64,000 nucleotides of DNA. It comes from Escherichia phage vB-Eco-KMB40. The stretch lies in the sequence record OR539220.1, one strand, 5' to 3'. The notes under the pieces are model-generated. The model ran no database searches. It saw only the letters and a program-made list of their open reading frames with translations, and was not told where the DNA came from. Below, one piece after another: positions 2,844 to 26,670 of the stretch. A program made the translations under genes and the position numbers. The first letter of the stretch is position 1. Each line of letters opens with the position of its first letter.

Positions 2844-3045
2844 TTTTCACCTTTTTATTAATATGTCTTTTTCTATAGACAACTTTTTCTCGAGTTTCAA
2901 ATTTATTCTTAGCAGTCATAGCTCGAGCCCATAATACAGCCGCTTCTTTTGCCTGTAAGTTCAATTCACGAGCAATTTCAATGAATGACTTTCCAGACTC
3001 ATGAAGAGTAAACACCACAACCTCAGTTCTCATAATCAATCTCAT
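2830..3045 (-). CDS. hypothetical small basic protein, possible helix-turn-helix (position of T4 24.3)
   Basis: 71-aa ORF; segment SGKSFIEIARELNLQAKEAA resembles an HTH. Confidence 0.45.
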   Translation of the reverse strand: MRLIMRTEVVVFTLHESGKSFIEIARELNLQAKEAAVLWARAMTAKNKFETREKVVYRKRHINKKVKNGTV

Positions 3046-3111
3046 GTTATTGAGTTGGTGCCATTATATACATCGTTTTCTGATTGTGTTTTGTGTGCTT
3101 TCAAAATGAAG

Positions 3112-3131
3112 AAAGGGGCCGAAGCCCCTTT
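3112..3131 (-). terminator. hairpin AAAGGGGC-CGAA-GCCCCTTT (UUCG loop on minus strand) after hoc
   Basis: 8-bp GC stem immediately after hoc stop at 3135. Confidence 0.5.
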
Positions 3132-3134
3132 CGA

Positions 3135-4265
3135 TTATGGATAGGTATAGATGATACCAGTTTCTAAAGCTGTTTTGTGAATGATGTATCCATTACGCGA
3201 TTCTTGGACATCAACTTCTGGATAATCTTTCATCATCTTCTGAAGCGTATAACGATGCAAGTAGTACTTACTATCTGGGTCGTCAGTTTTCCAATCTTTA
3301 CCTTCTTCAGTCATTTTTTGGATTTCATCCATAACCCACCAACCGCACCAGATATAAGCTGAAGTACGGTGCGGAAGAGGATGAACATAAGGCAATTCAC
3401 CTTCTGGTTCTGGAGCAACTTTATCAGTCACTTGAACTTGACCTGTTGTTTTAACTGTTTTGCTATCATAATCAGTTGCTGTAACGACAGCAGTAACTTC
3501 AATAGTTTGACTTCCAACAGATGAGGTATCGACAGTATATACGTTAGTTGACCCTTCTACAGGAGAAGAATCTTTCTTCCACGAGTAAGTAATTTGTGCT
3601 TCTTCTGGAGCATCCGTAACATTAGCCGTAAATGTAGCCGAAGCATCTTGCTGAACATTAATAGAAGGAGGAGTCAATGTAACCTGTGGATTCATTGTCT
3701 TCTTATTAACCGTTAATGATACTTCATTAGAAGTAACTTCCTTTTCATTGTAATTTTCTGCTGTTACTTGGGCTACGCATTTAATTCTTTTTACTCCACT
3801 TGTAGTTGGAGTATAGCTAAATGTAGAGTTAGTTTCTCCACCAACTTGTGAATCATCTACATACCACTGATACGTAGCAGATGCTCCATCAGGTTGAGAA
3901 GCTAAGGCAGCAGTAAATTGAACTGGGGTTCCAATTACTCCAGCTGGAGGACTATTGGGAGTTACGGCTAAGGTAGTCGTCTGAGTTTTGTTTTTGACTG
4001 TGATAGTTGTAGTAGCTTCTGCTGTTTCAACTTCAGATTCTGGAACTGTATTTGTTGCAACAACTTTAATAGTCTTTTGACCAGCAGGACCTTTTAATAC
4101 ATAATCAAAAGTTGCTTCAGACCCATCTTGTGGAGCATTATCTACACTCCAAGCATAAGTAATAGTTCCACCTCCAGTTTCACCACTGGGTGCAGCAGTA
4201 AACTGCTTGGTTTCATCAATAACTCCTGACGGTGTTTTAGGAGTTATATCAACTGTAAAAGCCAT
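3135..4265 (-). CDS. hoc: highly immunogenic outer capsid protein Hoc
   Basis: 376 aa; three tandem Ig-like segments plus C-terminal capsid-binding domain; matches T4 Hoc as recalled. Confidence 0.9.
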   Translation of the reverse strand: MAFTVDITPKTPSGVIDETKQFTAAPSGETGGGTITYAWSVDNAPQDGSEATFDYVLKGPAGQKTIKVVATNTVPESEVETAEATTTITVKNKTQTTTLAVTPNSPPAGVIGTPVQFTAALASQPDGASATYQWYVDDSQVGGETNSTFSYTPTTSGVKRIKCVAQVTAENYNEKEVTSNEVSLTVNKKTMNPQVTLTPPSINVQQDASATFTANVTDAPEEAQITYSWKKDSSPVEGSTNVYTVDTSSVGSQTIEVTAVVTATDYDSKTVKTTGQVQVTDKVAPEPEGELPYVHPLPHRTSAYIWCGWWVMDEIQKMTEEGKDWKTDDPDSKYYLHRYTLQKMMKDYPEVDVQESRNGYIIHKTALETGIIYTYP

Positions 4266-18201: not shown

Positions 18202-20295
18202 TTATCCTTGAACGAACTTGTAAGGCATGTTTGTAATATCTATGCAAGACGCAATAATTCCAAGAGATGATTCTACTTTCTGTTTAATATTTGATGAAAC
18301 AAATGATGCAAAGTCAACTCTGTCTTCTATTTCAATATCACCTGTCATTGCAACCAATTCACCAGTTTCCATTAAATGGTCTCCATCATAGATTACCGAT
18401 TCGGTGAGCTCTTCCGTGGTCATAACTTCAGCTTGAATGAGTTTTGTATTATTAGATGTTGTTCCGTCATTATTAGAAGCATCGGTTATTTTATTAACTT
18501 TGACCATCAATCCACGCGGTAGAATAACTTCAGCTTCTGTTGCTATTCCGAGACTTCCTGGATATACAACATTAACTTTATGAGCTCCATCAATTGCCCA
18601 TCCTATTTGAACTTTAACATATTCAGGATTTTCTTTATACGCTCTTATTTCGTTTGGATTAATAGTTATTCCTTCTTCATTTTTATCAACTGTTAATTCA
18701 TTGCGAGCTTCTGGTTCTAAAAGACCAATACCAGCATGTGTGATTCCAAAACGTCCAAAAATGATAGGAGTTAAAGAAGTAGATACAAAATTTCTGAAGT
18801 AGAACACTTTATTTTTAACTAACGCTTCATATATAGGAGCAGTCATACTTTGAGCACGATAAACTGTAATGCCTTCTGGTATACGGTCACCATTTTCAAA
18901 AGCTGAATCTAAATTATTTATAGCAGATTCAATTTCTTTTTCACTCATTATATCATATCGTTCTGGATTGTAACGACCTAAAAGAAGATTATTGATGTCT
19001 GTATATCCTGAACCACAATACTCTCTAATGCCGCGCTTTTGTGATGGAGTATATTTAGAACCATCACGGGCAATAGTAATATCAATCATTGGACCTGCAC
19101 AAATTCCGGAAAAGCTATAAATCATTCGTTTGAGGAATTTAGTTTTTGCTGCATTCCAGGCATTTTTAGTTATTTCTCCCCAGACTTCATCTGGCTGCCC
19201 TTTACGAGTTTTATTATGTTTATCAAGCCAATTATCTTTATATTCTTCAAATAATTGATTAACAGCTGCTGCGTATTTCTCTAAACATTTTATTGAAGTA
19301 GTTGGTTCATTTTTAATCGCATTAAGAATTACATCTTTAATTTTTTCTGAAACTTCATCAACCTCACTTTTTGAAAAGAATTTATAGTCATAGTGAAGTT
19401 CATTCGCAGTTCCTTCAGCAATAATTTTTGCTGCCTTTGTTTTAGAAGCTAATGAATTAATTCCAATTTTCATTTCTTCTGCTTCGGGAATTAAAGGTGC
19501 AGTAGCTGGTTTATTAAAATTAGCTGCTGTAGATTCATACTTCTGGAATAATTCACTTTCAAATCTAGAAGATTCCAATGACTGACTTTGTGCAATTGCT
19601 CTACGGGAAATTTTAACTTTAACGATTACAGCTTGATCAGAACGTTTATCATTTTCTTGTGCAATTGATGCTGCAATTGCCTCATTTTTAGTTACTTGAG
19701 CTCCAGTATCTTTATTGATATAAACATCACCGACCTTCGATTCAACTTTAGTAAAAAGCTCGGTACTAATTTCCGGAACTCCTGGAATGTCTTCTAGTGA
19801 TACATTTTTGCGATGTATAAGAATATATGCGTACTTTTTATCATAATCCCAGAGTTCCTTAAGAAGGACGTATCTGCCACCTGAACGACTACGGATAAGT
19901 CTATCAGCAATAACTTGAATTTGTCGAGCTTGACCAGCGGTTTTAGACTTAAGAATACGAAGCATGCAGGCATCAATTTTATACTGACGCATTGTTTGCA
20001 TTGCAACAGTAAAAACTGAATTGATATAATTAATTGGGCTTGGACCAAGACCTTTTAATTTGGCAATTGAACCTTTAGCAGTTAATGTAAAAGGAACAAT
20101 ATGCATCATTTTATCGCCCATCTTTAAATCGCGATTAGTATCACCTCCAGATGTATAGGTACATAAACGAAAGCCTGGTTGTTCAATTGCATCATCAACA
20201 TGAACTGAAAAAATTTGTGGTATTTTCTTCTTTGGATTTAAGTTTGTAATCGGAAGAGTAGTATCTTCGTCAAATAATTCTGTAATAAGTTCCAT
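18202..20295 (-). CDS. alt: ADP-ribosyltransferase Alt (packaged head protein)
   Basis: 697 aa; MELITELFDE N-terminus; motifs YRAQ, FVSTSL, EAEVILPRG; adjacent to ligase gene 30 region as in T4. Confidence 0.85.
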   Translation of the reverse strand: MELITELFDEDTTLPITNLNPKKKIPQIFSVHVDDAIEQPGFRLCTYTSGGDTNRDLKMGDKMMHIVPFTLTAKGSIAKLKGLGPSPINYINSVFTVAMQTMRQYKIDACMLRILKSKTAGQARQIQVIADRLIRSRSGGRYVLLKELWDYDKKYAYILIHRKNVSLEDIPGVPEISTELFTKVESKVGDVYINKDTGAQVTKNEAIAASIAQENDKRSDQAVIVKVKISRRAIAQSQSLESSRFESELFQKYESTAANFNKPATAPLIPEAEEMKIGINSLASKTKAAKIIAEGTANELHYDYKFFSKSEVDEVSEKIKDVILNAIKNEPTTSIKCLEKYAAAVNQLFEEYKDNWLDKHNKTRKGQPDEVWGEITKNAWNAAKTKFLKRMIYSFSGICAGPMIDITIARDGSKYTPSQKRGIREYCGSGYTDINNLLLGRYNPERYDIMSEKEIESAINNLDSAFENGDRIPEGITVYRAQSMTAPIYEALVKNKVFYFRNFVSTSLTPIIFGRFGITHAGIGLLEPEARNELTVDKNEEGITINPNEIRAYKENPEYVKVQIGWAIDGAHKVNVVYPGSLGIATEAEVILPRGLMVKVNKITDASNNDGTTSNNTKLIQAEVMTTEELTESVIYDGDHLMETGELVAMTGDIEIEDRVDFASFVSSNIKQKVESSLGIIASCIDITNMPYKFVQG

Positions 20296-20318
20296 GTTAT
20301 CCTCTCTAGTGTTTATTC

Positions 20319-20326
20319 TATTTATA
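20319..20326 (-). promoter_or_regulatory. late promoter TATAAATA for alt
   Basis: Plus TATTTATA; 24 nt upstream of alt ATG; RBS GAGAGGA. Confidence 0.5.
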
Positions 20327-20331
20327 AAATT

Positions 20332-20349
20332 AAAGGCCCGAAGGCCTTT
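20332..20349 (-). terminator. hairpin AAAGGCC-CGAA-GGCCTTT (UUCG on minus)
   Basis: Immediately after stop of the 61-aa ORF at 20352. Confidence 0.45.
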
Positions 20350-20351
20350 AA

Positions 20352-20537
20352 TTAATAGAGAGCTAAAAGAGTACGATATACTTCAAACTTTGGACCTTTT
20401 TCATAGGCATCAAATGTTTCTGTGAATTTATTATAAGCATATGCATCTATAAATTCAATCATGATTTGTGATACAGAAGTAGAAACATCTCCACCTTCTT
20501 TTTGAGCCACGACAATTGTTTCTAAGTAAGCTTTCAT
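20352..20537 (-). CDS. hypothetical protein
   Basis: 61-aa ORF; start overlaps gene 30 stop by 4 nt. Confidence 0.5.
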   Translation of the reverse strand: MKAYLETIVVAQKEGGDVSTSVSQIMIEFIDAYAYNKFTETFDAYEKGPKFEVYRTLLALY

Positions 20538-21997
20538 AAACCAGTTACCTCATGAAAATCACCAAATACATCTTCGAATGTATTAGCTTTAGTTTTATCT
20601 TCGCGTAAACGAATCGCAATTGGAAGAAATAGCTTAACGTAATCAGTACGTCCATCTAATTTTACCCAGCCGTTGCATTCGCACTCTAGAATTTTTCCAA
20701 TATAATAATTTTGGTTTTCCATAATGCGAGTACGATCAAGTTCATGCGATTTTATACCGGCTTTATCTTTTAAGCCTGAACCAGCATTTACTTTAATTTT
20801 TCCACACTCTGATTCAAGAATGAAACCACCTGCTTTAGTAGGGTCTTTACGGTGAGGATAAATTCCTACAATTTTTAAATCAACATCAATTACTTCTTTA
20901 AATTTATAAAGATTTTTTGAACGAGCATTTTCCCATAATCCATCGATATTTTTAAGAATAATACCTTCAAGACCTTGGTCAATATACTTTTTATAAATTA
21001 CCTTAGCTTCATCTAGGTTATTTACTACTTGGTTTTCAATTAAAATTACTTTATCATAGCCTGATGTCATTTGTTCTAGTTTAGAAAAACGTACATCATA
21101 TTTTAAACGAAATGCTGGAAGACCATATATTTCTACTAATGGAACATAGTCCCAGACCTGAAACTTCATGCATTGTGCTTCTTTTTCAGAAATGGTTCCC
21201 TTTAAAGATTTATTAGCGATTCCATTAGAAGTAGTACGTGATTCAGCTACTTCGGCGAATTCTTTAGCTTTACTAATTTCAGGATAAGCATCAAAAAGAA
21301 AATCTAGGCCTTCTGGTTCCTTTTTAACTTGCTCATGGTATACCAATTCGCCATCAATTAACACACCTTCTGGATGAATCTGGCGAGCTTCTGCAGTCAT
21401 TTTGATTAACTCTTCCTTGAGAAGATCTAATCCTAGATATTCATTACCAGCTCGTGATAAAAGACGAACATCATCTAATTCATCACCTCTGACTTCAGCA
21501 AAACAGCGAGCTCCATCAGCTTTTAGCTGTGCAAAGGCTGGAAATTTGATATTCTTATTAATGCCTTTTTCGTCATAAGAACTTGCTAGCATTTGAGGTT
21601 GTTCAGGAATTAAACCTGGCCAAACTTTGTTTGCAATAGATACTGATGCACCGCATTCAAGGTCTCGCATCATCACCCGACGCAAAACTTCAACATCATC
21701 TTTTTTACCGTCAGTAATATATCCAGTTAATTCCTCAATTGCCGCATTTCCAGTCAATTTCCGAGTAGCTAACGTGAATTCAATGAAGTCAAGCATATCG
21801 GTAAGAGTCAACATTCCAAAACTCTGGGTAGTAATACCCGGTTTAGGCCATTTCTTGATATAATACTGTAACCCACGAGAATAAGTCAGACGATATACTC
21901 GTTTAAGCAATTCATTATCTTTATTCTTTTCAAGAATTGCTTGCTTCTGCTTAGTTGAACCAATAGATGCTATTTCGTTCAGAATTTTAAGAATCAT
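20534..21997 (-). CDS. 30: ATP-dependent DNA ligase gp30
   Basis: 487 aa; adenylation motif KADGARC; matches T4 ligase. Confidence 0.95.
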   Translation of the reverse strand: MILKILNEIASIGSTKQKQAILEKNKDNELLKRVYRLTYSRGLQYYIKKWPKPGITTQSFGMLTLTDMLDFIEFTLATRKLTGNAAIEELTGYITDGKKDDVEVLRRVMMRDLECGASVSIANKVWPGLIPEQPQMLASSYDEKGINKNIKFPAFAQLKADGARCFAEVRGDELDDVRLLSRAGNEYLGLDLLKEELIKMTAEARQIHPEGVLIDGELVYHEQVKKEPEGLDFLFDAYPEISKAKEFAEVAESRTTSNGIANKSLKGTISEKEAQCMKFQVWDYVPLVEIYGLPAFRLKYDVRFSKLEQMTSGYDKVILIENQVVNNLDEAKVIYKKYIDQGLEGIILKNIDGLWENARSKNLYKFKEVIDVDLKIVGIYPHRKDPTKAGGFILESECGKIKVNAGSGLKDKAGIKSHELDRTRIMENQNYYIGKILECECNGWVKLDGRTDYVKLFLPIAIRLREDKTKANTFEDVFGDFHEVTGL

Positions 21998-22263
21998 TGT
22001 TCATCCTTTAGAGTTTGGTTTACAGCTCTATTATAAATCAATTCATCATTAAGCTCAGTCAAAGACCTGTGATACGTGGTTCTAACTTTATTTCCTTGCA
22101 TCCAGTGCTTGACATAAATGAAACCTTGCTCTACACATTTTTTAAAAATTCGTTCGTCTTTTTGAGCTCGGAATTCTGGATTGCATCTAAAAAATTGATT
22201 TACGTGACCGTAATCACGTGTAGTATTACCTTCATTTTCATAAATAGTGTGAACGACAAACAT
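21994..22263 (-). CDS. hypothetical protein (30.1 position)
   Basis: 89-aa ORF; 4-nt overlaps with both neighbours. Confidence 0.55.
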   Translation of the reverse strand: MFVVHTIYENEGNTTRDYGHVNQFFRCNPEFRAQKDERIFKKCVEQGFIYVKHWMQGNKVRTTYHRSLTELNDELIYNRAVNQTLKDEQ

Positions 22264-23099
22264 TAGAATGCTCCTTGGAAAATATTATCACCACTAGTAG
22301 GTCTATTATACAAATACTCTATGCCACCGGGTTTAATATAGTTCCATGTCTGAAACGGATGCGTCTGATATGGATGATATAGATTATAAGGATTAAATCC
22401 AGGAGTTCTCCAGGTAGTGTTCCAAGGAAAAGAATCGTTTTTAATCATCTTTTCAATTACATCTTTTATAGCTTTTTCACTATCAAAACTTTCTTTATTT
22501 TCATTCGATGGAAAAAGCTTATTCTCTACATCATTCCATGTATAAACTCGCTGTGCAGTTTTTGGAATATTGTCACGCTCTCCTCGAGCCATCCAATAAA
22601 CAGGAACATTTAATATTTCACTCGCATGATCGCAGTGGTGAGCGAGATCGTCAATATAACAAATTACGTTATATTTCTCTTTTGCCTTTTTGAACAACTC
22701 TTCTTTTGAAGAATCATGACCACACATCAATACTTCTGAGAAGGCATCAGGAAAAAGAGCATTCAAATTAAATTGACGATTCAGCAGAGCGTCAATAGAA
22801 TCACCCAGTGCTGTAACAGCTACAAAATTATAATCTTCTTTTAATTTGTTAATTACACACAGGGCATCTTTATATGGAGACAAATAGCGAATAAAATCTG
22901 AACGATTATACTTTTCGATTAATTTAACACCAAGTTCTTCATCGCAATTAAAGAGCTTACCAGGAGAAATAAATTTTTCGTCCTGAATCATTTTTAAAAT
23001 ATGTTCCAACGGAAGATTATATTTTTGGGCAAAATAAGGAAGGCCTGATTGCCAGCTTAAACATACACCATCAATATCAGTCAAAATAGTAGGCTTCAT
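22263..23099 (-). CDS. HAD-superfamily hydrolase-like protein (30.2 position)
   Basis: 278 aa; N-terminal motif ILTDIDGV (DxDG[T/V]). Confidence 0.6.
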   Translation of the reverse strand: MKPTILTDIDGVCLSWQSGLPYFAQKYNLPLEHILKMIQDEKFISPGKLFNCDEELGVKLIEKYNRSDFIRYLSPYKDALCVINKLKEDYNFVAVTALGDSIDALLNRQFNLNALFPDAFSEVLMCGHDSSKEELFKKAKEKYNVICYIDDLAHHCDHASEILNVPVYWMARGERDNIPKTAQRVYTWNDVENKLFPSNENKESFDSEKAIKDVIEKMIKNDSFPWNTTWRTPGFNPYNLYHPYQTHPFQTWNYIKPGGIEYLYNRPTSGDNIFQGAF

Positions 23100-23560
23100 A
23101 GAGAGTCTCTTAATAGGTTTAACACATCAATAAATTCAACTTCGGTTAGTATTGTATCATCTTTTGTTAGACCACTAGCCATGCTATGCTTCAAAATTTT
23201 TCCTTTTGAGGCTTGTAAGGCATCACGAAACCCCTTGTTTTGGATCGCTGCTTCAAAATATGCATTTGTATACAATTCTTTCCACGCTGGGGAGTATCTT
23301 GAAAATGGAACTCCGAGCCAGAAGAGGGTCCCACGGTCCGCAGCTCTTGCATAAGACCTTCCAGCTTGTTGGGCGGCAAGCCCGGATAACCCAAATATAC
23401 GTCTTTGCTGCTCAACATTTTTCACCTTGCATCCTTGGAGGAATCCTTCAAGACCTCCGAATTGAATACCATCCATGACGAAAGGCCATTGGGCGAAATT
23501 ACTTAATGCGCATGATGGCCATCTAAAATTGCTTCTAATCTCTAACTCAGACATTTTCAA
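23096..23560 (-). CDS. YbiA/NADAR-family protein (30.3 position)
   Basis: 154 aa; LSNFAQWPFVMDG...LEGFLQGCK aligns by eye with E. coli YbiA FSNFAAWPIKVDG...EHYFQAQK. Confidence 0.6.
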   Translation of the reverse strand: MKMSELEIRSNFRWPSCALSNFAQWPFVMDGIQFGGLEGFLQGCKVKNVEQQRRIFGLSGLAAQQAGRSYARAADRGTLFWLGVPFSRYSPAWKELYTNAYFEAAIQNKGFRDALQASKGKILKHSMASGLTKDDTILTEVEFIDVLNLLRDSL

Positions 23561-23753
23561 TACTTATAATTTCAACATCAGCCCAATGACCATAGCAAGG
23601 AAGACGAAATTCAACTGGCCAGTTAGGGTCCTTTTCTAATATAATAGACTTAACTTGTGGTTCTTCATGTTCATCAGTATATGGATTTTTATCTGTTACT
23701 TTATATGTGACCTTAATGTATTGAATTCCAAAAATCTTATTAATTATATTCAT
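23547..23753 (-). CDS. hypothetical protein
   Basis: 68-aa ORF in early gene run. Confidence 0.45.
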   Translation of the reverse strand: MNIINKIFGIQYIKVTYKVTDKNPYTDEHEEPQVKSIILEKDPNWPVEFRLPCYGHWADVEIISIENV

Positions 23754-23947
23754 ACTAATTCCTTTAATCCGTAAATAGGAGACAATTCATCACCCATACG
23801 AAGGTCTTCATTTCCATCTACCCAGGAAACAATATAAGCCTCTTTTATTTGAACACCACTCCATTTAAATGGAGGTAGAACCTTAGAAATTAATCCAGGT
23901 ATACCAACTCCCTTTAATTCAACAGTTTGACCTAAAAAGAATTTCAT
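23750..23947 (-). CDS. hypothetical protein
   Basis: 65-aa ORF; 4-nt overlap with upstream gene. Confidence 0.45.
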   Translation of the reverse strand: MKFFLGQTVELKGVGIPGLISKVLPPFKWSGVQIKEAYIVSWVDGNEDLRMGDELSPIYGLKELV

Positions 23948-24234
23948 TAGAACCTCATCTGAAAACCATGCGATTTAACATTACCGCCGCCAATATCAGA
24001 AATATTAATTTCACGCGCAATCGAAGGATCGATGTCAATTTCACGATTAAGTTTAGCGATAGCTAAAGTATCACGCCCATTTACAGTACGGAACTCTAAA
24101 GGACAAACCACATCAACGTAATTTTTAATCGATTCACTGGTAGGTTGCAAATGAGCAGGAAGGTCTTTGGGCGCCTTTGAGAAAACCACTTCACAGAAAT
24201 TTTTACGGGTATCAAAATAAGTAGTCATAAACAT
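23947..24234 (-). CDS. hypothetical protein
   Basis: 95-aa ORF. Confidence 0.5.
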   Translation of the reverse strand: MFMTTYFDTRKNFCEVVFSKAPKDLPAHLQPTSESIKNYVDVVCPLEFRTVNGRDTLAIAKLNREIDIDPSIAREINISDIGGGNVKSHGFQMRF

Positions 24235-24250
24235 AGTATTTTCCTCAGTA

Positions 24251-24266
24251 AGGGGCCGAAGCCCCT
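24251..24266. terminator. hairpin AGGGGC-CGAA-GCCCCT in intergenic spacer
   Basis: GC-rich tetraloop hairpin; T-run on plus side only, so may be an RNA stability element rather than a minus-strand terminator. Confidence 0.35.
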
Positions 24267-24275
24267 CATTTTATT

Positions 24276-24641
24276 TTAAATATCAAATTCATTAAGAACT
24301 ACATCAAAGATTGCTTCAAGATGCTCAGGTTTAGCTCTGTTACTCAGAATATGACGAATCCAAGTTTTAACCAAAAGCTTGCGATTATCACCATTCCAGC
24401 AAGGATGAGTCCCTAAATCGCGTTGACGAAAATCATCATCCAGAGCGATTTTAAAGTTGGAACCTTCCATTGTGATTGAAACCGTGATGCCATTTTCAAA
24501 TCGCATATAAACGTAATTAGGAGTCATATACTGTTCAATTTCGCATACTGATCCATTTTGATGTTTCCAAAGGCAAATAGTATCAATAGAACCTGCAATA
24601 CCATTAGAAACATATTTACGTTCAAAGTTGATGTAGTTCAT
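24276..24641 (-). CDS. hypothetical protein
   Basis: 121 aa from ATG 24641 with RBS GGAG (supplied ORF starts at TTG 24653). Confidence 0.5.
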   Translation of the reverse strand: MNYINFERKYVSNGIAGSIDTICLWKHQNGSVCEIEQYMTPNYVYMRFENGITVSITMEGSNFKIALDDDFRQRDLGTHPCWNGDNRKLLVKTWIRHILSNRAKPEHLEAIFDVVLNEFDI

Positions 24642-24677
24642 TTTATTCTCCAAGATGTTTAATTGCGGTACAGGTAT

Positions 24678-24706
24678 ATAATATCATATCCTGTACCAAA
24701 GTAAAC
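24678..24706 (-). promoter_or_regulatory. early promoter
   Basis: Minus GTTTAC, 17 nt, TATTAT; overlaps 8-bp inverted repeat GGTACAGG...CCTGTACC. Confidence 0.45.
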
Positions 24707-24708
24707 AA

Positions 24709-25041
24709 TTATTTTACTACTTTCCAGTGTTGCATGTCAAGTTTACCGACTTTTTTCATCTTCTCAATTAAGCGTTCGGCACGTTGGCGAGCTGTAACAT
24801 AATGCCATTCGCCTAATTCATTTTGTTCAATTTTTCCAACGATTACTGTATTCAATTCATAAATCCAACCAGTAAAGAAATTATGAACTTGAATTGTAAA
24901 GGTGAAATCTGTTCCCATACCTTCTGTTGTTTCTACTTCAATAATATCACCTTCAACTGCCATTAAGAACCACATAGTTTCATCATATTTACCATTGAAG
25001 CATTTAGTTTTAACTGCAGCGTTCAGATTAATCGTTTTCAT
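24709..25041 (-). CDS. hypothetical protein
   Basis: 110-aa ORF with its own early promoter. Confidence 0.55.
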   Translation of the reverse strand: MKTINLNAAVKTKCFNGKYDETMWFLMAVEGDIIEVETTEGMGTDFTFTIQVHNFFTGWIYELNTVIVGKIEQNELGEWHYVTARQRAERLIEKMKKVGKLDMQHWKVVK

Positions 25042-25068
25042 TTTATTCTCCTTTGTTTGTGTAAAATA

Positions 25069-25098
25069 ATACTATCACAAAGGAACCATACTGTAAAC
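25069..25098 (-). promoter_or_regulatory. early promoter
   Basis: Minus GTTTAC (plus 25093-25098), 18 nt, TAGTAT. Confidence 0.45.
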
Positions 25099-25120
25099 AA
25101 CTTTGTGCAATCTTTGGAAA

Positions 25121-25147
25121 ATAAAAAAGGACTCCCGAAGGAGTCCT
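25121..25147 (-). terminator. intrinsic terminator AGGACTCC-UUCG-GGAGUCCU plus U-run
   Basis: 8-bp stem, UUCG loop, UUUUUUAU tail directly after stop at 25152. Confidence 0.6.
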
Positions 25148-25151
25148 CAAC

Positions 25152-25328
25152 TTATGCTTTCTGCTTACCAAAACGAGAAGCATCATCTCGAAGAACCGCA
25201 CGTGCTCGGCGCATGATCTTCTCAACAGTTTGATTGATACGAGAGTTCGACCCACGCTTGTAGCCAGCGCGTTTAGAATCACCAACTTTCTTTTCAACTG
25301 CTTTCTTTGCTTTAACTTGTTTTGCCAT
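25152..25328 (-). CDS. small highly basic protein (about 6.4 kDa)
   Basis: 58 aa from ATG 25328 (MAKQVKAKKAVEKK...); Lys/Arg-rich; strong terminator downstream. Confidence 0.5.
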   Translation of the reverse strand: MAKQVKAKKAVEKKVGDSKRAGYKRGSNSRINQTVEKIMRRARAVLRDDASRFGKQKA

Positions 25329-25573
25329 TATAAATTCTCTTTTAAATGAAAATGCAGGACTTATTGGCATTGCCTGCGCAAGCCCTCAAGGGGAACATAG
25401 GTTTTTGGGTATTTAACGACCAGGATAACCATAAACCCGTCATCATTCACATTCAAGAGGTACACCATAAAACTGCCGGGGTCTTAAAACTATAATGATT
25501 CGCAAATCATTAATCAGACAGTTCGATGGCTCCTCGATTTTAGCTCACACTAAGGCAGTGAATCTCCAATAAA

Positions 25574-25822
25574 TTACTTCAATGTTACCACAAAGTGACG
25601 AACTGCTTTTCGCGCAGCAGAAGCCAGAGGCTTAGCATACTTAAGTTCATCTTTTTCCTGAAGCTCAGCAGCTAATGCAGTTTGAGCAGGATTCAAATGT
25701 TTGAAATAACGCAGGATTTCAAGAGCTTCGGCTTCAACATCAATAGATGCGCCATAGTTTTCGTGACCATTATTCCATGCGTTTCGTTGCAGTTCAAGAG
25801 CGTGTTGCAATTGTTTAATCAT
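25574..25822 (-). CDS. rIII: rIII-like lysis inhibition accessory protein
   Basis: 82 aa, same length and position (between 30.x block and gene 31) as T4 rIII; sequence not independently recalled. Confidence 0.55.
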   Translation of the reverse strand: MIKQLQHALELQRNAWNNGHENYGASIDVEAEALEILRYFKHLNPAQTALAAELQEKDELKYAKPLASAARKAVRHFVVTLK

Positions 25823-25969
25823 TTAAAAATTCTCGTTAGAGATTAAAACTCGGTAGTCACGTTCTTCTGAATTTCATCTTCTTTCGACAGATCTCTCAGT
25901 TGTAGACTACCACGTAGAATTGTTCGGTTAACTTATTATTCCGACACCCAATTCATATTATTATTTATA

Positions 25970-26305
25970 TCACTTATAAAGACACGGAATAGCTTTATAG
26001 TGACAAGTAACGAATTTTTGTTTAATTTCTTTTGACTGCTTAAGACCCAGAGCTACAAAAGGATGCGGAACATTTCGAATTTGACCAACTGGAAGAGAAG
26101 TCAAATCACCGACTTCGCAGAAACCTTCAGGAACATCAGGACCAACAGAGTGAACTACACACAGTTCAGGAACTTCACCTTGGACACGTTTACCAATAAT
26201 AAGTCCTGATTCTGTAACTTCTTCATCACCGGCTTGCGCAGGTTCAGAAACTAAAATAACATATTCACCGACAGCACGAATTGGTAGCTGTTGTACTTCA
26301 GACAT
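25970..26305 (-). CDS. 31: co-chaperonin gp31 (GroES analogue)
   Basis: 111 aa; [18 protein letters not shown]... matches T4 gp31 as recalled; RBS AAGGAAA. Confidence 0.85.
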
Positions 26306-26335
26306 CGTTTTTCCTTTTTGTTAACAGATGAATTA

Positions 26336-26360
26336 ATAATAACAAATAATTCTTAAAGCA
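26336..26360 (-). promoter_or_regulatory. MotA-dependent middle promoter for gene 31
   Basis: Minus strand AATGCTTTA (MotA box), 12-nt spacer, TATTAT; about 24 nt leader to gene 31 ATG. Confidence 0.55.
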
Positions 26361-26361
26361 T

Positions 26362-26670
26362 TTATTTACCAATAAATTGGAGTAAATGCTCAACTTTCAT
26401 ACCATTAACAGAAATCAATTTGTCAATAGAAAAACCTCGCCATGCACCGAGTTCAACATCAAATATCGGAATCATATCAGTAGATTCTTTCCGAGTAGAT
26501 TCAGTCAATTTACCGGTTTGCATAGTTGGCATAAAGTCAGCATCACGAGTGCCTTTCATAGTACGAATAGTACCATCAGACTTTTCAAAAACCACGTTTG
26601 AAATACCCATGGACAATTTAGTTTTCAAAATTTCACGAATTGCTACTTTCTGTTCAGTTGTCAATTTCAT
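26362..26670 (-). CDS. hypothetical protein (31.1 position)
   Basis: 102-aa ORF. Confidence 0.55.
   Translation of the reverse strand: MKLTTEQKVAIREILKTKLSMGISNVVFEKSDGTIRTMKGTRDADFMPTMQTGKLTESTRKESTDMIPIFDVELGAWRGFSIDKLISVNGMKVEHLLQFIGK

What the first reader, a model, noticed from the sequence alone, without database searches (positions are those of the whole stretch)
22263..23560. YbiA/NADAR-like protein next to a HAD-like hydrolase in the early gene 30 region
The 154-aa ORF (23096..23560) carries LSNFAQWPFVMDG...LEGFLQGCK, which aligns by eye with E. coli YbiA. That family is linked to N-glycosidase and ADP-ribosyl-hydrolase chemistry and, as I recall, to reversal of guanine ADP-ribosylation by DarT-type toxins. 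It is translationally coupled (4-nt overlap) to a 278-aa protein with a HAD motif I (ILTDIDGV). Together they could form a nucleotide or ADP-ribose processing unit, possibly an anti-defence module, in a phage that also injects ADP-ribosyltransferases.
Basis: partly seen in the sequence, partly recalled or inferred. Interest (0 to 1): 0.5.

Follow-up and report, generated by a model that had tools for sequence, protein, structure and literature searches.

The report
Known phage anti-DarT enzyme plus neighbouring phosphatase
The smaller gene is the T4-type AdfN enzyme, already shown by experiment to strip ADP-ribose off phage DNA and defeat the bacterial DarTG1 defence. Its neighbour is a separate nucleotidase-like phosphatase that published data show is not needed for that job, so the finding is correct but largely already known.

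Summary
The window is a T4-like phage (Tequatrovirus), and both ORFs are real, on the minus strand.

**Gene 30.3.** It starts at the ATG at 23554 and encodes 152 aa, not 154. It is 148/152 identical to T4 gp30.3, now called AdfN. It matches Pfam Phage_30_3 (2.5e-68). Its AlphaFold model (pLDDT 93) hits only the three solved NADAR structures. The catalytic residues E36, K43 and H123 and the C-terminal helix are intact. Published work already shows that T4 AdfN is a guanine-specific DNA ADP-ribosylglycohydrolase, necessary and sufficient against DarTG1.

**The proposed two-gene module is not supported:**
- All seven gene junctions from 30.6 to alt.1 overlap, so the ATGA overlap is not specific to this pair.
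- 30.2 sits next to DNA ligase in 64/79 related loci, but next to the NADAR gene in only 32/79.
- The NADAR gene lies elsewhere in other T4-like lineages.
- In a published T4 transposon screen on DarTG1, 30.3 insertions are lost (log2FC -7.25) while 30.2 insertions are unaffected (-0.12, adjusted p = 1).

**Verdict:** Only the substrate of gp30.2 remains open.

The parts
23096..23554 (-). Gene 30.3 = adfN (152 aa plus stop): NADAR-family DNA ADP-ribosylglycohydrolase, the anti-DarTG1 factor
   Evidence: Pfam PF08010 Phage_30_3, 2.5e-68. 148/152 identical to T4 gp30.3. AF2 pLDDT 93. Foldseek top three hits are YbiA 2b3w, PnNADAR 8bau and G. lovleyi NADAR 8bat. Function shown for the T4 orthologue in PMC11825919.
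23555..23560 (-).
   Evidence: T4 annotation starts at the ATG. The E36/K43 numbering in the paper fits only the ATG start.
23426..23449 (-). Catalytic stretch of AdfN: E36 (23447-23449) to K43 (23426-23428), within the EGFLQGCK motif
   Evidence: E36 is invariant and K43 is conserved in at least 90% of 44 homologues. E36A and K43A impair counter-defence and E36A abolishes DNA de-ADP-ribosylation in T4 AdfN. Codons verified.
23186..23188 (-). H123 of AdfN: the histidine in the last strand that marks the phage (gp30.3) NADAR subfamily
   Evidence: Invariant in alignment A2. Subfamily definition from PMC11125620. Codon verified.
23096..23099 (-). ATGA overlap: 30.3 stop (TGA) and 30.2 start (ATG)
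   Evidence: It is one of seven consecutive overlapping junctions, so it is not specific to this pair.
22263..23099 (-). Gene 30.2 (278 aa plus stop): HAD-superfamily phosphatase with a helical C1-type cap, a divergent NT5C-like family; substrate unknown
22515..23099 (-). HAD catalytic core plus cap of gp30.2 (residues 1-195). Motif I D8/D10 (23070-23078), cap W16 (23052-23054), motif II T96 (22812-22814), motif III K132 (22704-22706), motif IV D150-D151 (22647-22652), C-terminal W188 (22536-22538)
   Evidence: These residues are invariant across 30 homologues down to 41% identity. Codons verified. This is the only part conserved in all homologues.
22266..22514 (-). C-terminal tail of gp30.2 (residues 196-278): variable, rich in Pro and aromatic residues. 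Low-confidence (probably disordered) from about residue 225; residues 199-221 are modelled as a helix. It ends in a GGIEYLYNRPT motif
   Evidence: pLDDT below 50 for residues 225-278. The tail is short or absent (under 35 residues) in 19 of 75 homologues, and a strict pattern found the GIEYL..QPT motif in 13 of 75.
23191..23418 (-). 30.3' : an alternative-frame ORF inside 30.3, annotated in T4; probably not a real gene
   Evidence: Annotated in NC_000866. Only 60/75 identical to T4, while the overlapping 30.3 frame is 148/152 identical.
20534..21997 (-). Gene 30, ATP-dependent DNA ligase: the conserved downstream neighbour of 30.2, with 30.1 (DUF3045, 21994-22263) in between
   Evidence: A ligase homologue lies within 4 kb downstream of the 30.2 homologue in 64/79 viral loci.

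Best explanation
Two adjacent but functionally independent early genes of a T4-like phage.

**Gene 30.3 (adfN).** It encodes a small single-domain NADAR enzyme. When the host DarT1 toxin ADP-ribosylates guanine bases in replicating phage DNA, AdfN hydrolyses the bond between guanine and ribose. This releases ADP-ribose and restores normal DNA, so replication continues. Catalysis uses E36, K43 and the phage-subfamily histidine H123, and needs the C-terminal helix. The mechanism is shown for the 97%-identical T4 protein. For this window it is inferred from identity, conserved residues and fold.

**Gene 30.2.** It encodes a HAD phosphatase with a helical cap domain and an Asp-x-Asp nucleophile/acid pair. 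It is a divergent branch of the NT5C 5'(3')-deoxyribonucleotidase family. It most likely dephosphorylates a small nucleotide-type phosphomonoester in a Mg2+-dependent reaction. The fold and motifs are shown here; the substrate class is inferred; the biological role is unknown. It is an ancestral neighbour of DNA ligase in T4-like phages (family Straboviridae) and is dispensable in the laboratory, including on DarTG1 hosts.

The 4-nt overlap reflects the compact packing of this early gene string, not a dedicated two-gene module.
For: **AdfN**
- Pfam Phage_30_3, 2.5e-68.
- 148/152 identical to T4 gp30.3; none of the four differences falls on a catalytic residue.
- E36 and H123 are invariant and K43 is conserved in at least 90% of 44 homologues.
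- The family profile hits YbiA with E = 0.004.
- AF2 pLDDT 93, and Foldseek finds YbiA, PnNADAR and G. lovleyi NADAR as the top three.
- Literature: deleting adfN sensitises T4 and T2 to DarTG1. Ectopic adfN rescues RB69, whose own copy is truncated. Purified protein removes ADP-ribose from DNA, and E36A is inactive. It acts on guanosine-ADPr, not thymidine-ADPr, in vitro. The truncated RB69 30.3 was confirmed here.

**gp30.2**
- D8, D10, T96, K132, D150 and D151 are invariant.
- The top PDB profile hits are NT5C-type enzymes in two separate searches, though not significant (E = 0.7 and 0.14).
- A 37%-identical relative (L157) scores 37 bits against Pfam NT5C, cutoff 24.8, full length. Further relatives carry PF06941.

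**Independence of the two genes**
- Linkage counts: ligase beside 30.2 in 64/79 loci, NADAR upstream of 30.2 in 32/79, a 30.2-type HAD within 4 kb of a NADAR in 19/80.
- The NADAR gene is relocated in KP185 and KVP40 while 30.2 stays beside ligase.
- HIDEN-SEQ on DarTG1: 30.3 log2FC -7.25 against 30.2 -0.12.
- 30.2 has insertions at 72/72 TA sites and shows no LB-versus-M9 effect.
Against: - The window protein was not assayed, and four substitutions (positions 72, 120, 125, 139) separate it from T4 AdfN.
- Where the two genes are linked, the order NADAR then HAD on one strand is always kept, even in lineages only 40-48% identical. One divergent arrangement (L039) puts a HAD-like gene two genes upstream of a NADAR. 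A loose functional relation is therefore not excluded.
- AdfN works fully only during T-even infection, and the authors suggest another T-even protein may be needed. The transposon data argue against 30.2 being that protein, but they come from one screen in one host.
Confidence: 0.85

Rival explanations
1. One reading: 30.3 and 30.2 form a coupled two-enzyme anti-defence module. The NADAR enzyme releases ADP-ribose from DNA, and the HAD phosphatase processes the released ADP-ribose or a related nucleotide. Alternatively, 30.2 is the missing T-even cofactor that AdfN needs in vivo.
For: - ATGA overlap.
- The order NADAR then HAD is conserved on one strand in 32/79 loci, including lineages only 40-48% identical.
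- Both genes occur in about 1,440-1,510 phage records with almost identical genus distributions.
- AdfN is fully active only in T-even infections, and RB69, where ectopic AdfN works, has an intact 30.2.
Against: - T4 transposon insertions in 30.2 show no fitness cost on DarTG1 (log2FC -0.12, adjusted p = 1), while 30.3 insertions are lost.
- AdfN alone de-ADP-ribosylates DNA in vitro.
- The genes are about 55-60 kb apart in many T4-like genomes.
- NADAR genes in unrelated phages have no HAD neighbour.
- Every junction in this gene string overlaps.
- Genome-level co-occurrence is what two ancestral genes of T4-like phages (Straboviridae) would show anyway.
Confidence: 0.05
2. gp30.2 is a DNA-end 3'-phosphatase (like PNKP or the T4 PseT phosphatase domain) that cleans nicks for the adjacent DNA ligase.
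For: - 30.2 lies immediately upstream of ligase in 64/79 loci, often abutting or overlapping it.
- In one distant phage it lies just upstream of UvsX.
- Weak PHROG hit to a polynucleotide kinase family, E = 1.7e-3.
Against: - gp30.2 has a roughly 80-residue helical cap inserted after motif I. From general knowledge of HAD enzymes, such caps close over small substrates, whereas DNA 3'-phosphatases lack a cap.
- Relatives match NT5C, not PNK.
- T4-like phages already encode PseT.
- Adjacency to ligase may be plain synteny.
Confidence: 0.08
3. gp30.2 is a HAD phosphatase for a non-nucleotide metabolite, for example a sugar phosphate, or a YigB-like FMN or riboflavin-intermediate phosphatase. The latter would echo the role of E. 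coli YbiA in riboflavin-intermediate clean-up.
For: - JGI labels several homologues 'FMN phosphatase YigB (HAD superfamily)'.
- Weak NCBIfam hits to HAD-IA and type II models.
Against: - These labels are automatic and below family thresholds.
- The only model passed at its curated cutoff by any relative is NT5C.
- Phage AdfN acts on DNA, not on riboflavin intermediates.
Confidence: 0.1

Closest known systems
T4 gp30.3 = AdfN (anti-DarT factor NADAR), Johannesman et al., Nat Commun 2025 (PMC11825919)
   Same: Orthologue: 148/152 identical, same length, same position between 30.4 and 30.2. E36, K43, H123 and the C-terminal helix are all present.
   Different: Four substitutions (A72Q, I120V, M125I, V139A, window versus T4). 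The window phage is a different Tequatrovirus isolate, 95.7% nucleotide identity to T4 over 30..30.6.
E. coli YbiA (PDB 2b3w) and the DarT1-linked NADAR antitoxins (G. lovleyi 8bat, P. nicotianae 8bau)
   Same: Same fold: TM 0.68 (normalised to the query) to 2b3w. The N-terminal SNFA...E..Q..K catalytic motif is shared.
   Different: Only 15-17% identity. The last-strand catalytic residue is His in the phage subfamily, Glu in YbiA and Asp in DarT-linked NADARs. AdfN has no partner toxin gene and cannot replace DarG1 in uninfected cells.
RB69 gp30.3 (naturally truncated AdfN)
   Same: Same locus and neighbours, including an intact 30.2.
   Different: A frameshift leaves 137 aa lacking the C-terminal helix. 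RB69 is DarTG1-sensitive. The window copy is full length.
NT5C family 5'(3')-deoxyribonucleotidases (Pfam PF06941; human/mouse cdN 2i7d/2jao, mdN 6g2m, S. epidermidis 3bwv)
   Same: HAD core with a helical C1-type cap, the DxDGV motif I, and an aromatic residue eight positions after the nucleophile Asp (W16, aligned to Phe in 2jao). A conserved C-terminal Trp is also shared. Target TM 0.60-0.67. Distant 30.2 relatives pass the NT5C cutoff.
   Different: The window protein does not reach the NT5C threshold. It carries an extra variable C-terminal tail of about 80 residues, low-confidence from about residue 225. No activity has been measured.
T4 Tk.4 = AdfM (macrodomain anti-DarTG2 factor), HIDEN-SEQ preprint 10.1101/2025.11.20.689424
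   Same: The same strategy: a phage-encoded orphan antitoxin-like ADP-ribosylglycohydrolase that reverses DNA ADP-ribosylation.
   Different: Unrelated fold (macrodomain). It counters DarTG2, whose DarT2 modifies thymidine, and is encoded elsewhere in the genome.

Membership tests
NADAR superfamily, phage gp30.3/AdfN subfamily | Sequence-profile membership (Pfam PF08010 Phage_30_3; link to PF08719 NADAR) | tested here: met
   PF08010: 228.6 bits against a cutoff of 36, E = 2.5e-68. PF08719 is not hit directly by the window protein. However, the family profile hits YbiA with E = 0.004, and a 38%-identical homologue (P0139) carries both PF08010 and PF08719.
NADAR superfamily, phage gp30.3/AdfN subfamily | [quoted passage not shown] | tested here: met
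   AF2 pLDDT 93, pTM 0.88. The Foldseek PDB top three are 2b3w (E = 7.8e-5, query TM 0.68), 8bau and 8bat. The next hit has E above 2.
NADAR superfamily, phage gp30.3/AdfN subfamily | Catalytic Glu and Lys (E36, K43) and the subfamily-specific last-strand His (H123) | tested here: met
   E36 and H123 are invariant and K43 is at least 90% conserved in 44 sequences. Codons verified.
NADAR superfamily, phage gp30.3/AdfN subfamily | Intact C-terminal helix, which is lost in the inactive RB69 allele | tested here: met
   Full 152 aa, with a helix at residues 138-151 in the model. RB69 has 137 aa.
NADAR superfamily, phage gp30.3/AdfN subfamily | Hydrolysis of guanine-linked ADP-ribose on DNA; protection against DarTG1 | not testable with these tools
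   Shown for the 97%-identical T4 protein: dot blot and plaque assays, in vitro specificity, and a transposon screen with log2FC -7.25.
HAD (haloacid dehalogenase-like) superfamily phosphatases | Four catalytic motifs: I DxD, II S/T, III K/R, IV DD/ED | tested here: met
   D8, D10, T96, K132, D150 and D151 are invariant in 30 homologues. The Asp at +2 points to a phosphatase or mutase rather than a dehalogenase (general knowledge of the superfamily).
HAD (haloacid dehalogenase-like) superfamily phosphatases | Rossmann-like HAD core fold with a cap | tested here: met
HAD (haloacid dehalogenase-like) superfamily phosphatases | Direct hit to a curated HAD profile (Pfam or NCBIfam) | tested here: not met
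   The window protein has no Pfam family at E <= 1 and no NCBIfam family at E <= 10. Homologues give only sub-threshold hits to PF00702 and PF13419.
NT5C 5'(3')-deoxyribonucleotidase family (PF06941) | Profile membership at the gathering threshold | tested here: inconclusive
   Not met by the window protein. It is met by a 37%-identical relative from L157 (37.0 bits against 24.8, model positions 2-174 of 180), which matches the 30.2 family HMM at 7e-28. 4/30 and 6/15 family members give weak NT5C hits. Some relatives carry precomputed PF06941.
NT5C 5'(3')-deoxyribonucleotidase family (PF06941) | Nucleoside monophosphate phosphohydrolase activity | not testable with these tools
   No assay of gp30.2 was found in two literature searches.
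   NADAR upstream of 30.2 in 32/79 loci. A 30.2-type HAD within 4 kb of a NADAR in 19/80 loci. The genes are unlinked in KP185 and in KVP40-like phages (NADAR locus in KVP40, 30.2 locus in Va3), and the large-phage NADAR loci lack a HAD neighbour.
   Published T4 HIDEN-SEQ table read here: 30.3 log2FC -7.25 (adjusted p = 0); 30.2 -0.12 (p = 0.61, adjusted p = 1).

The most novel reading that the evidence does not exclude
gp30.2 is not a housekeeping enzyme. It would be a conserved nucleotide-directed phosphatase of T4-like phages (Straboviridae) with a conditional role that laboratory hosts do not reveal. One possibility is destroying a nucleotide-type immune signal or toxic nucleotide made by a defence system absent from E. 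coli K-12. Another is trimming the AMP or dNMP pool around ligase and replication. Its fast-evolving C-terminal tail, rich in aromatic and proline residues, would dock it to a lineage-specific partner. The evidence here does not exclude this: the gene occurs in about 1,440 of 50,697 phage records, has an intact active site, and is fully dispensable in LB, in M9 and on DarTG1.
Probability: 0.12. Interest if true: 0.5.

Novelty: already known. Interest (0 to 1): 0.15.

Why it matters
The main finding is settled. It identifies this phage's copy of AdfN, an experimentally characterised counter-defence enzyme, and predicts from its intact sequence that the phage resists DarTG1.

For annotation, many database records still call both genes 'hypothetical protein'. 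The window therefore shows how far public annotation lags behind the literature.

The one open item is gp30.2. It is a near-universal T4-family phosphatase with an intact active site and no known substrate or phenotype. Placing it with the NT5C nucleotidases, and showing that it follows ligase rather than AdfN, narrows the experiments worth doing. This is an incremental gain.

Tried and rejected
1. **Direct sequence search of both proteins against PDB.** Only chance-level hits. Profiles and structure models were needed.
2. **Gene fusion in KVP40-like phages.** The shared label 'putative 32.4 kDa protein' in tblastn rows suggested a NADAR-HAD fusion. Inspection showed two separate loci: NADAR beside genes 47/46, HAD beside ligase and alt. 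The name is merely inherited from T4 30.2.
3. **Neighbours of distant NADAR homologues in large phages (L001, L004).** The translated neighbours have no DxDG motif and no HAD-HMM hit.
4. **Context of the most distant 30.2 homologues.** One lies upstream of UvsX; the others have no informative Pfam neighbours.
5. **Promoter and terminator scan of 20000-26500.** Counts are no higher than in shuffled sequence (25 against 25.4; 4 against 3.4), so no transcription-unit claim is made.
6. **Exhaustive representative-protein search with the 30.2 profile.** It failed three times because the remote machine did not answer. It was replaced by a profile search of the indexed database.
7. **One literature search timed out.** Searches for gp30.2 found no functional study.
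8. **Label correction.** My gene labels are shifted by one relative to the T4 annotation (g30.3p = 30.4, g30.4 = 30.5, and so on). This was corrected after and does not affect the 30.2, 30.3 or ligase counts.
Full report
**1. What is there**

The window is a T4-like phage. The 1.8-kb region around the finding is 99.9% identical to Escherichia phage ph0021 and matches 720 phage records, mostly Escherichia and Shigella T-even phages. All genes in the region lie on the minus strand.

Alignment with the annotated T4 genome gives the following map:

| Gene | Window coordinates | Note |
|---|---|---|
| alt | 18202-20295 | |
| alt.1 | 20352-20537 | |
| 30 (DNA ligase) | 20534-21997 | |
| 30.1 | 21994-22263 | DUF3045 |
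| 30.2 | 22263-23099 | 278 aa |
| 30.3 | 23096-23554 | 152 aa |
| 30.4 | 23547-23753 | |
| 30.5 | 23750-23947 | |
| 30.6 | 23947-24234 | |

The ATG at 23554 is the T4 start, and only this start places the published catalytic residues at E36 and K43. The quoted peptide strings and the ATGA overlap at 23096-23099 are real. The window proteins are 148/152 (30.3) and 270/278 (30.2) identical to those of T4.

**2. Gene 30.3 is AdfN**

The protein matches Pfam PF08010 (Phage_30_3) at 2.5e-68, but does not match PF08719 (NADAR) directly. I tested the by-eye YbiA likeness in two ways.

- *Profile search.* A profile of 44 homologues (down to 35% identity) finds E. coli YbiA (2b3w) as the only significant PDB sequence. 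The E-value is 0.004, over the SNFA...EGFLQ...K segment.
- *Structure.* An AlphaFold model (pLDDT 93, pTM 0.88) has YbiA, the Phytophthora NADAR and the Geobacter lovleyi DarT-linked NADAR as its top three PDB matches. Nothing else scores below E = 2.

E36 and H123 are invariant and K43 is nearly invariant. H123 is the histidine that defines the phage gp30.3 branch of the superfamily.

The function is already established for T4 gp30.3, renamed AdfN:
- Deleting it makes T4 and T2 unable to plaque on DarTG1.
- Supplying it rescues RB69, whose own copy is frameshifted.
- E36A and K43A impair it.
- The purified protein removes ADP-ribose from DarT1-modified DNA.
- It acts on guanosine-ADPr, not thymidine-ADPr.
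- An independent transposon screen found 30.3 insertions completely lost on DarTG1.

I confirmed that RB69 30.3 is 137 aa and that its 30.2 is intact. The window copy is full length with all key residues, so it is predicted to be active.

**3. Gene 30.2 is a capped HAD phosphatase of NT5C type**

The window protein hits no Pfam or NCBIfam model. It matches only PHROG 420, which has no assigned function.

Homologues come from contigs of about 160-180 kb or from named T4-like phages. Their alignment shows invariant D8, D10 (DxDG), T96, K132 and D150-D151, which are the four HAD motifs. It also shows an invariant W16-Q-S cap segment and W188.

The AlphaFold model is confident for about the first 220 residues (mostly pLDDT 88-98, with dips near residues 11-20 and 191-210) and low-confidence for 225-278.
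- Foldseek gives 85 PDB hits at or below 1e-3. All 50 shown are HAD-type folds, with the 5'(3')-deoxyribonucleotidases at the best target-normalised TM scores of 0.60-0.67.

Two separate family profiles put an NT5C-type enzyme at the top of the PDB sequence hits, although not significantly (2jao, E = 0.7; 3bwv, E = 0.14).

The link becomes significant through more distant relatives. Marine homologues are found with the 30.2 HMM at 1e-24 to 1e-28. One of them, 37% identical, scores 37 bits against Pfam NT5C, above the cutoff of 24.8, over the full length. Others carry precomputed PF06941.

From this I infer a Mg2+-dependent phosphomonoesterase acting on a small nucleotide-like substrate. The actual substrate is unknown.

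The C-terminal tail is rich in Pro, Trp and Tyr and highly variable. It is short or absent (under 35 residues) in 19 of 75 homologues, and a subset carries a GIEYL..QPT motif.

**4. Are the two genes a unit?**

Four lines of evidence say no.

- *Overlap is generic.* Seven consecutive junctions from 30.6 to alt.1 overlap by 1-8 nt.
- *Synteny follows ligase, not the NADAR gene.*
  - Among 79 viral loci seeded with the 30.2 family, a ligase homologue lies within 4 kb downstream in 64.
  - A NADAR gene lies upstream in only 32.
  - Among 80 loci seeded with the NADAR family, only 19 have a 30.2-type HAD within 4 kb.
  - Contigs present in both lists show the two genes about 55-60 kb apart in many T4-like genomes.
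  - In Klebsiella phage KP185 the NADAR gene sits inside the tRNA cluster, while 30.2 stays between rIII/31 and ligase/alt.
  - In KVP40-like phages the NADAR gene sits beside genes 47/46 (KVP40) and the HAD gene beside ligase (Va3).
  - In two unrelated large phages the NADAR neighbours are not HADs.
  - Both genes occur in about 1,440-1,510 of 50,697 phage records with matching genus distributions. That is what two ancestral genes of T4-like phages would show regardless of function.
- *Biochemistry.* AdfN alone works on DNA in vitro.
- *Genetics.*

| T4 HIDEN-SEQ comparison | Gene | log2FC | Significance |
|---|---|---|---|
| Control vs DarTG1 | 30.3 | -7.25 | adjusted p = 0 |
| Control vs DarTG1 | 30.4 | -1.79 | adjusted p = 0.014 |
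| Control vs DarTG1 | 30.2 | -0.12 | p = 0.61, adjusted p = 1 |
| Control vs DarTG1 | 30.1 | -0.01 | not significant |
| LB vs M9 | 30.2 | -0.10 | p = 0.61 |

  The 30.4 effect is plausibly polar on 30.3, or due to the 8-nt overlap. 30.2 also carries insertions at 72/72 TA sites, so it is non-essential.

There is residual evidence for some relation. Where the genes are linked, the order is always NADAR then HAD. One divergent phage (L039) has a HAD-like gene two genes upstream of a NADAR. The authors of the AdfN paper also suspect an unidentified T-even cofactor. I put the module idea at about 5%.

**5. Comparison with known systems and novelty**

AdfN in this window is an orthologue of a characterised protein, so the central finding is already known. 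An earlier comparative paper had also noted that NADAR genes in T4-like phages are early genes near ADP-ribosyltransferase genes.

For gp30.2, the HAD assignment already appears in some database records. The NT5C placement and the ligase synteny are modest refinements. I found no published function for gp30.2.

**6. Verdict**

- Interest is low (0.15) because the main point is already published. The only open question is the substrate and role of gp30.2.

Noticed in passing
window 23191-23418 (-): The ORF annotated in T4 as 30.3' (internal, alternative frame within 30.3) is only 60/75 identical to T4, while the overlapping 30.3 frame is 148/152 identical. It evolves like an unconstrained frame and is probably not a real gene.
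   Followed up: partly
L169 (Klebsiella phage KP185, OM337877.1 63951-70388), NADAR gene at locus 3001-3450: In this Jiaodavirus the gp30.3-type NADAR gene lies inside the phage tRNA gene cluster, with tRNAs on both sides and 59 kb from 30.2. This might hint at a different (RNA?) target for that NADAR branch, which is about 42% identical to AdfN.
   Followed up: no
window 22266-22514 (-) and homologues P0001-P0075: gp30.2 carries a fast-evolving C-terminal tail rich in Pro, Trp and Tyr, low-confidence from about residue 225. Lineages have alternative short terminal motifs (GIEYL..QPT in some, ..LRAYY in others). The tail is short or absent (under 35 residues) in 19 of 75 homologues. It looks like a docking tail for an unknown partner.
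   Followed up: partly
proteins P0082, P0088, P0091, P0092, P0120; L098 3636-4001; RB69 L171 8268-8681: Many natural T4-like phages carry truncated or fused 30.3 genes (86-126 aa, or fused to neighbouring families), as RB69 does. In the cases I looked at (UGJNEcP4, L098, RB69) 30.2 remains intact. AdfN therefore seems to be lost repeatedly.
   Followed up: partly
L001 8115-8879 and 9308-10294 (308-kb phage contig): In a jumbo-phage contig the gp30.3-type NADAR gene lies about 3 kb from a NUDIX hydrolase gene and a Thg1-like gene. This is a different NAD/ADP-ribose or RNA-repair context from that in T4.
   Followed up: no
published T4 data for gene 30.4 (window 23547-23753): In the HIDEN-SEQ DarTG1 screen, 30.4, the gene just upstream of adfN that overlaps it by 8 nt, is the only other significant hit (log2FC -1.79, adjusted p = 0.014). 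This is probably a polar effect on adfN, but a genuine contribution of gp30.4 is not excluded.
   Followed up: no
L039 2736-4456 (166-kb T4-like viral contig): A divergent NT5C-like HAD gene, a 155-aa protein with an HExxH motif, an 81-aa ORF and a gp30.3-type NADAR gene form a tightly overlapping four-gene string. This is a second arrangement, in a different order, that brings a HAD and a NADAR close together.
   Followed up: partly
window 24711-24740 (-) and 25127-25148 (-): The best sigma-70-like match on the coding strand (TTGACA, 18 nt, TAAAAT; 11/12) lies just upstream of 30.7. A strong hairpin followed by a T-run lies at 25127-25148. Site counts in the region are no higher than in shuffled sequence, so I draw no conclusion.
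   Followed up: no
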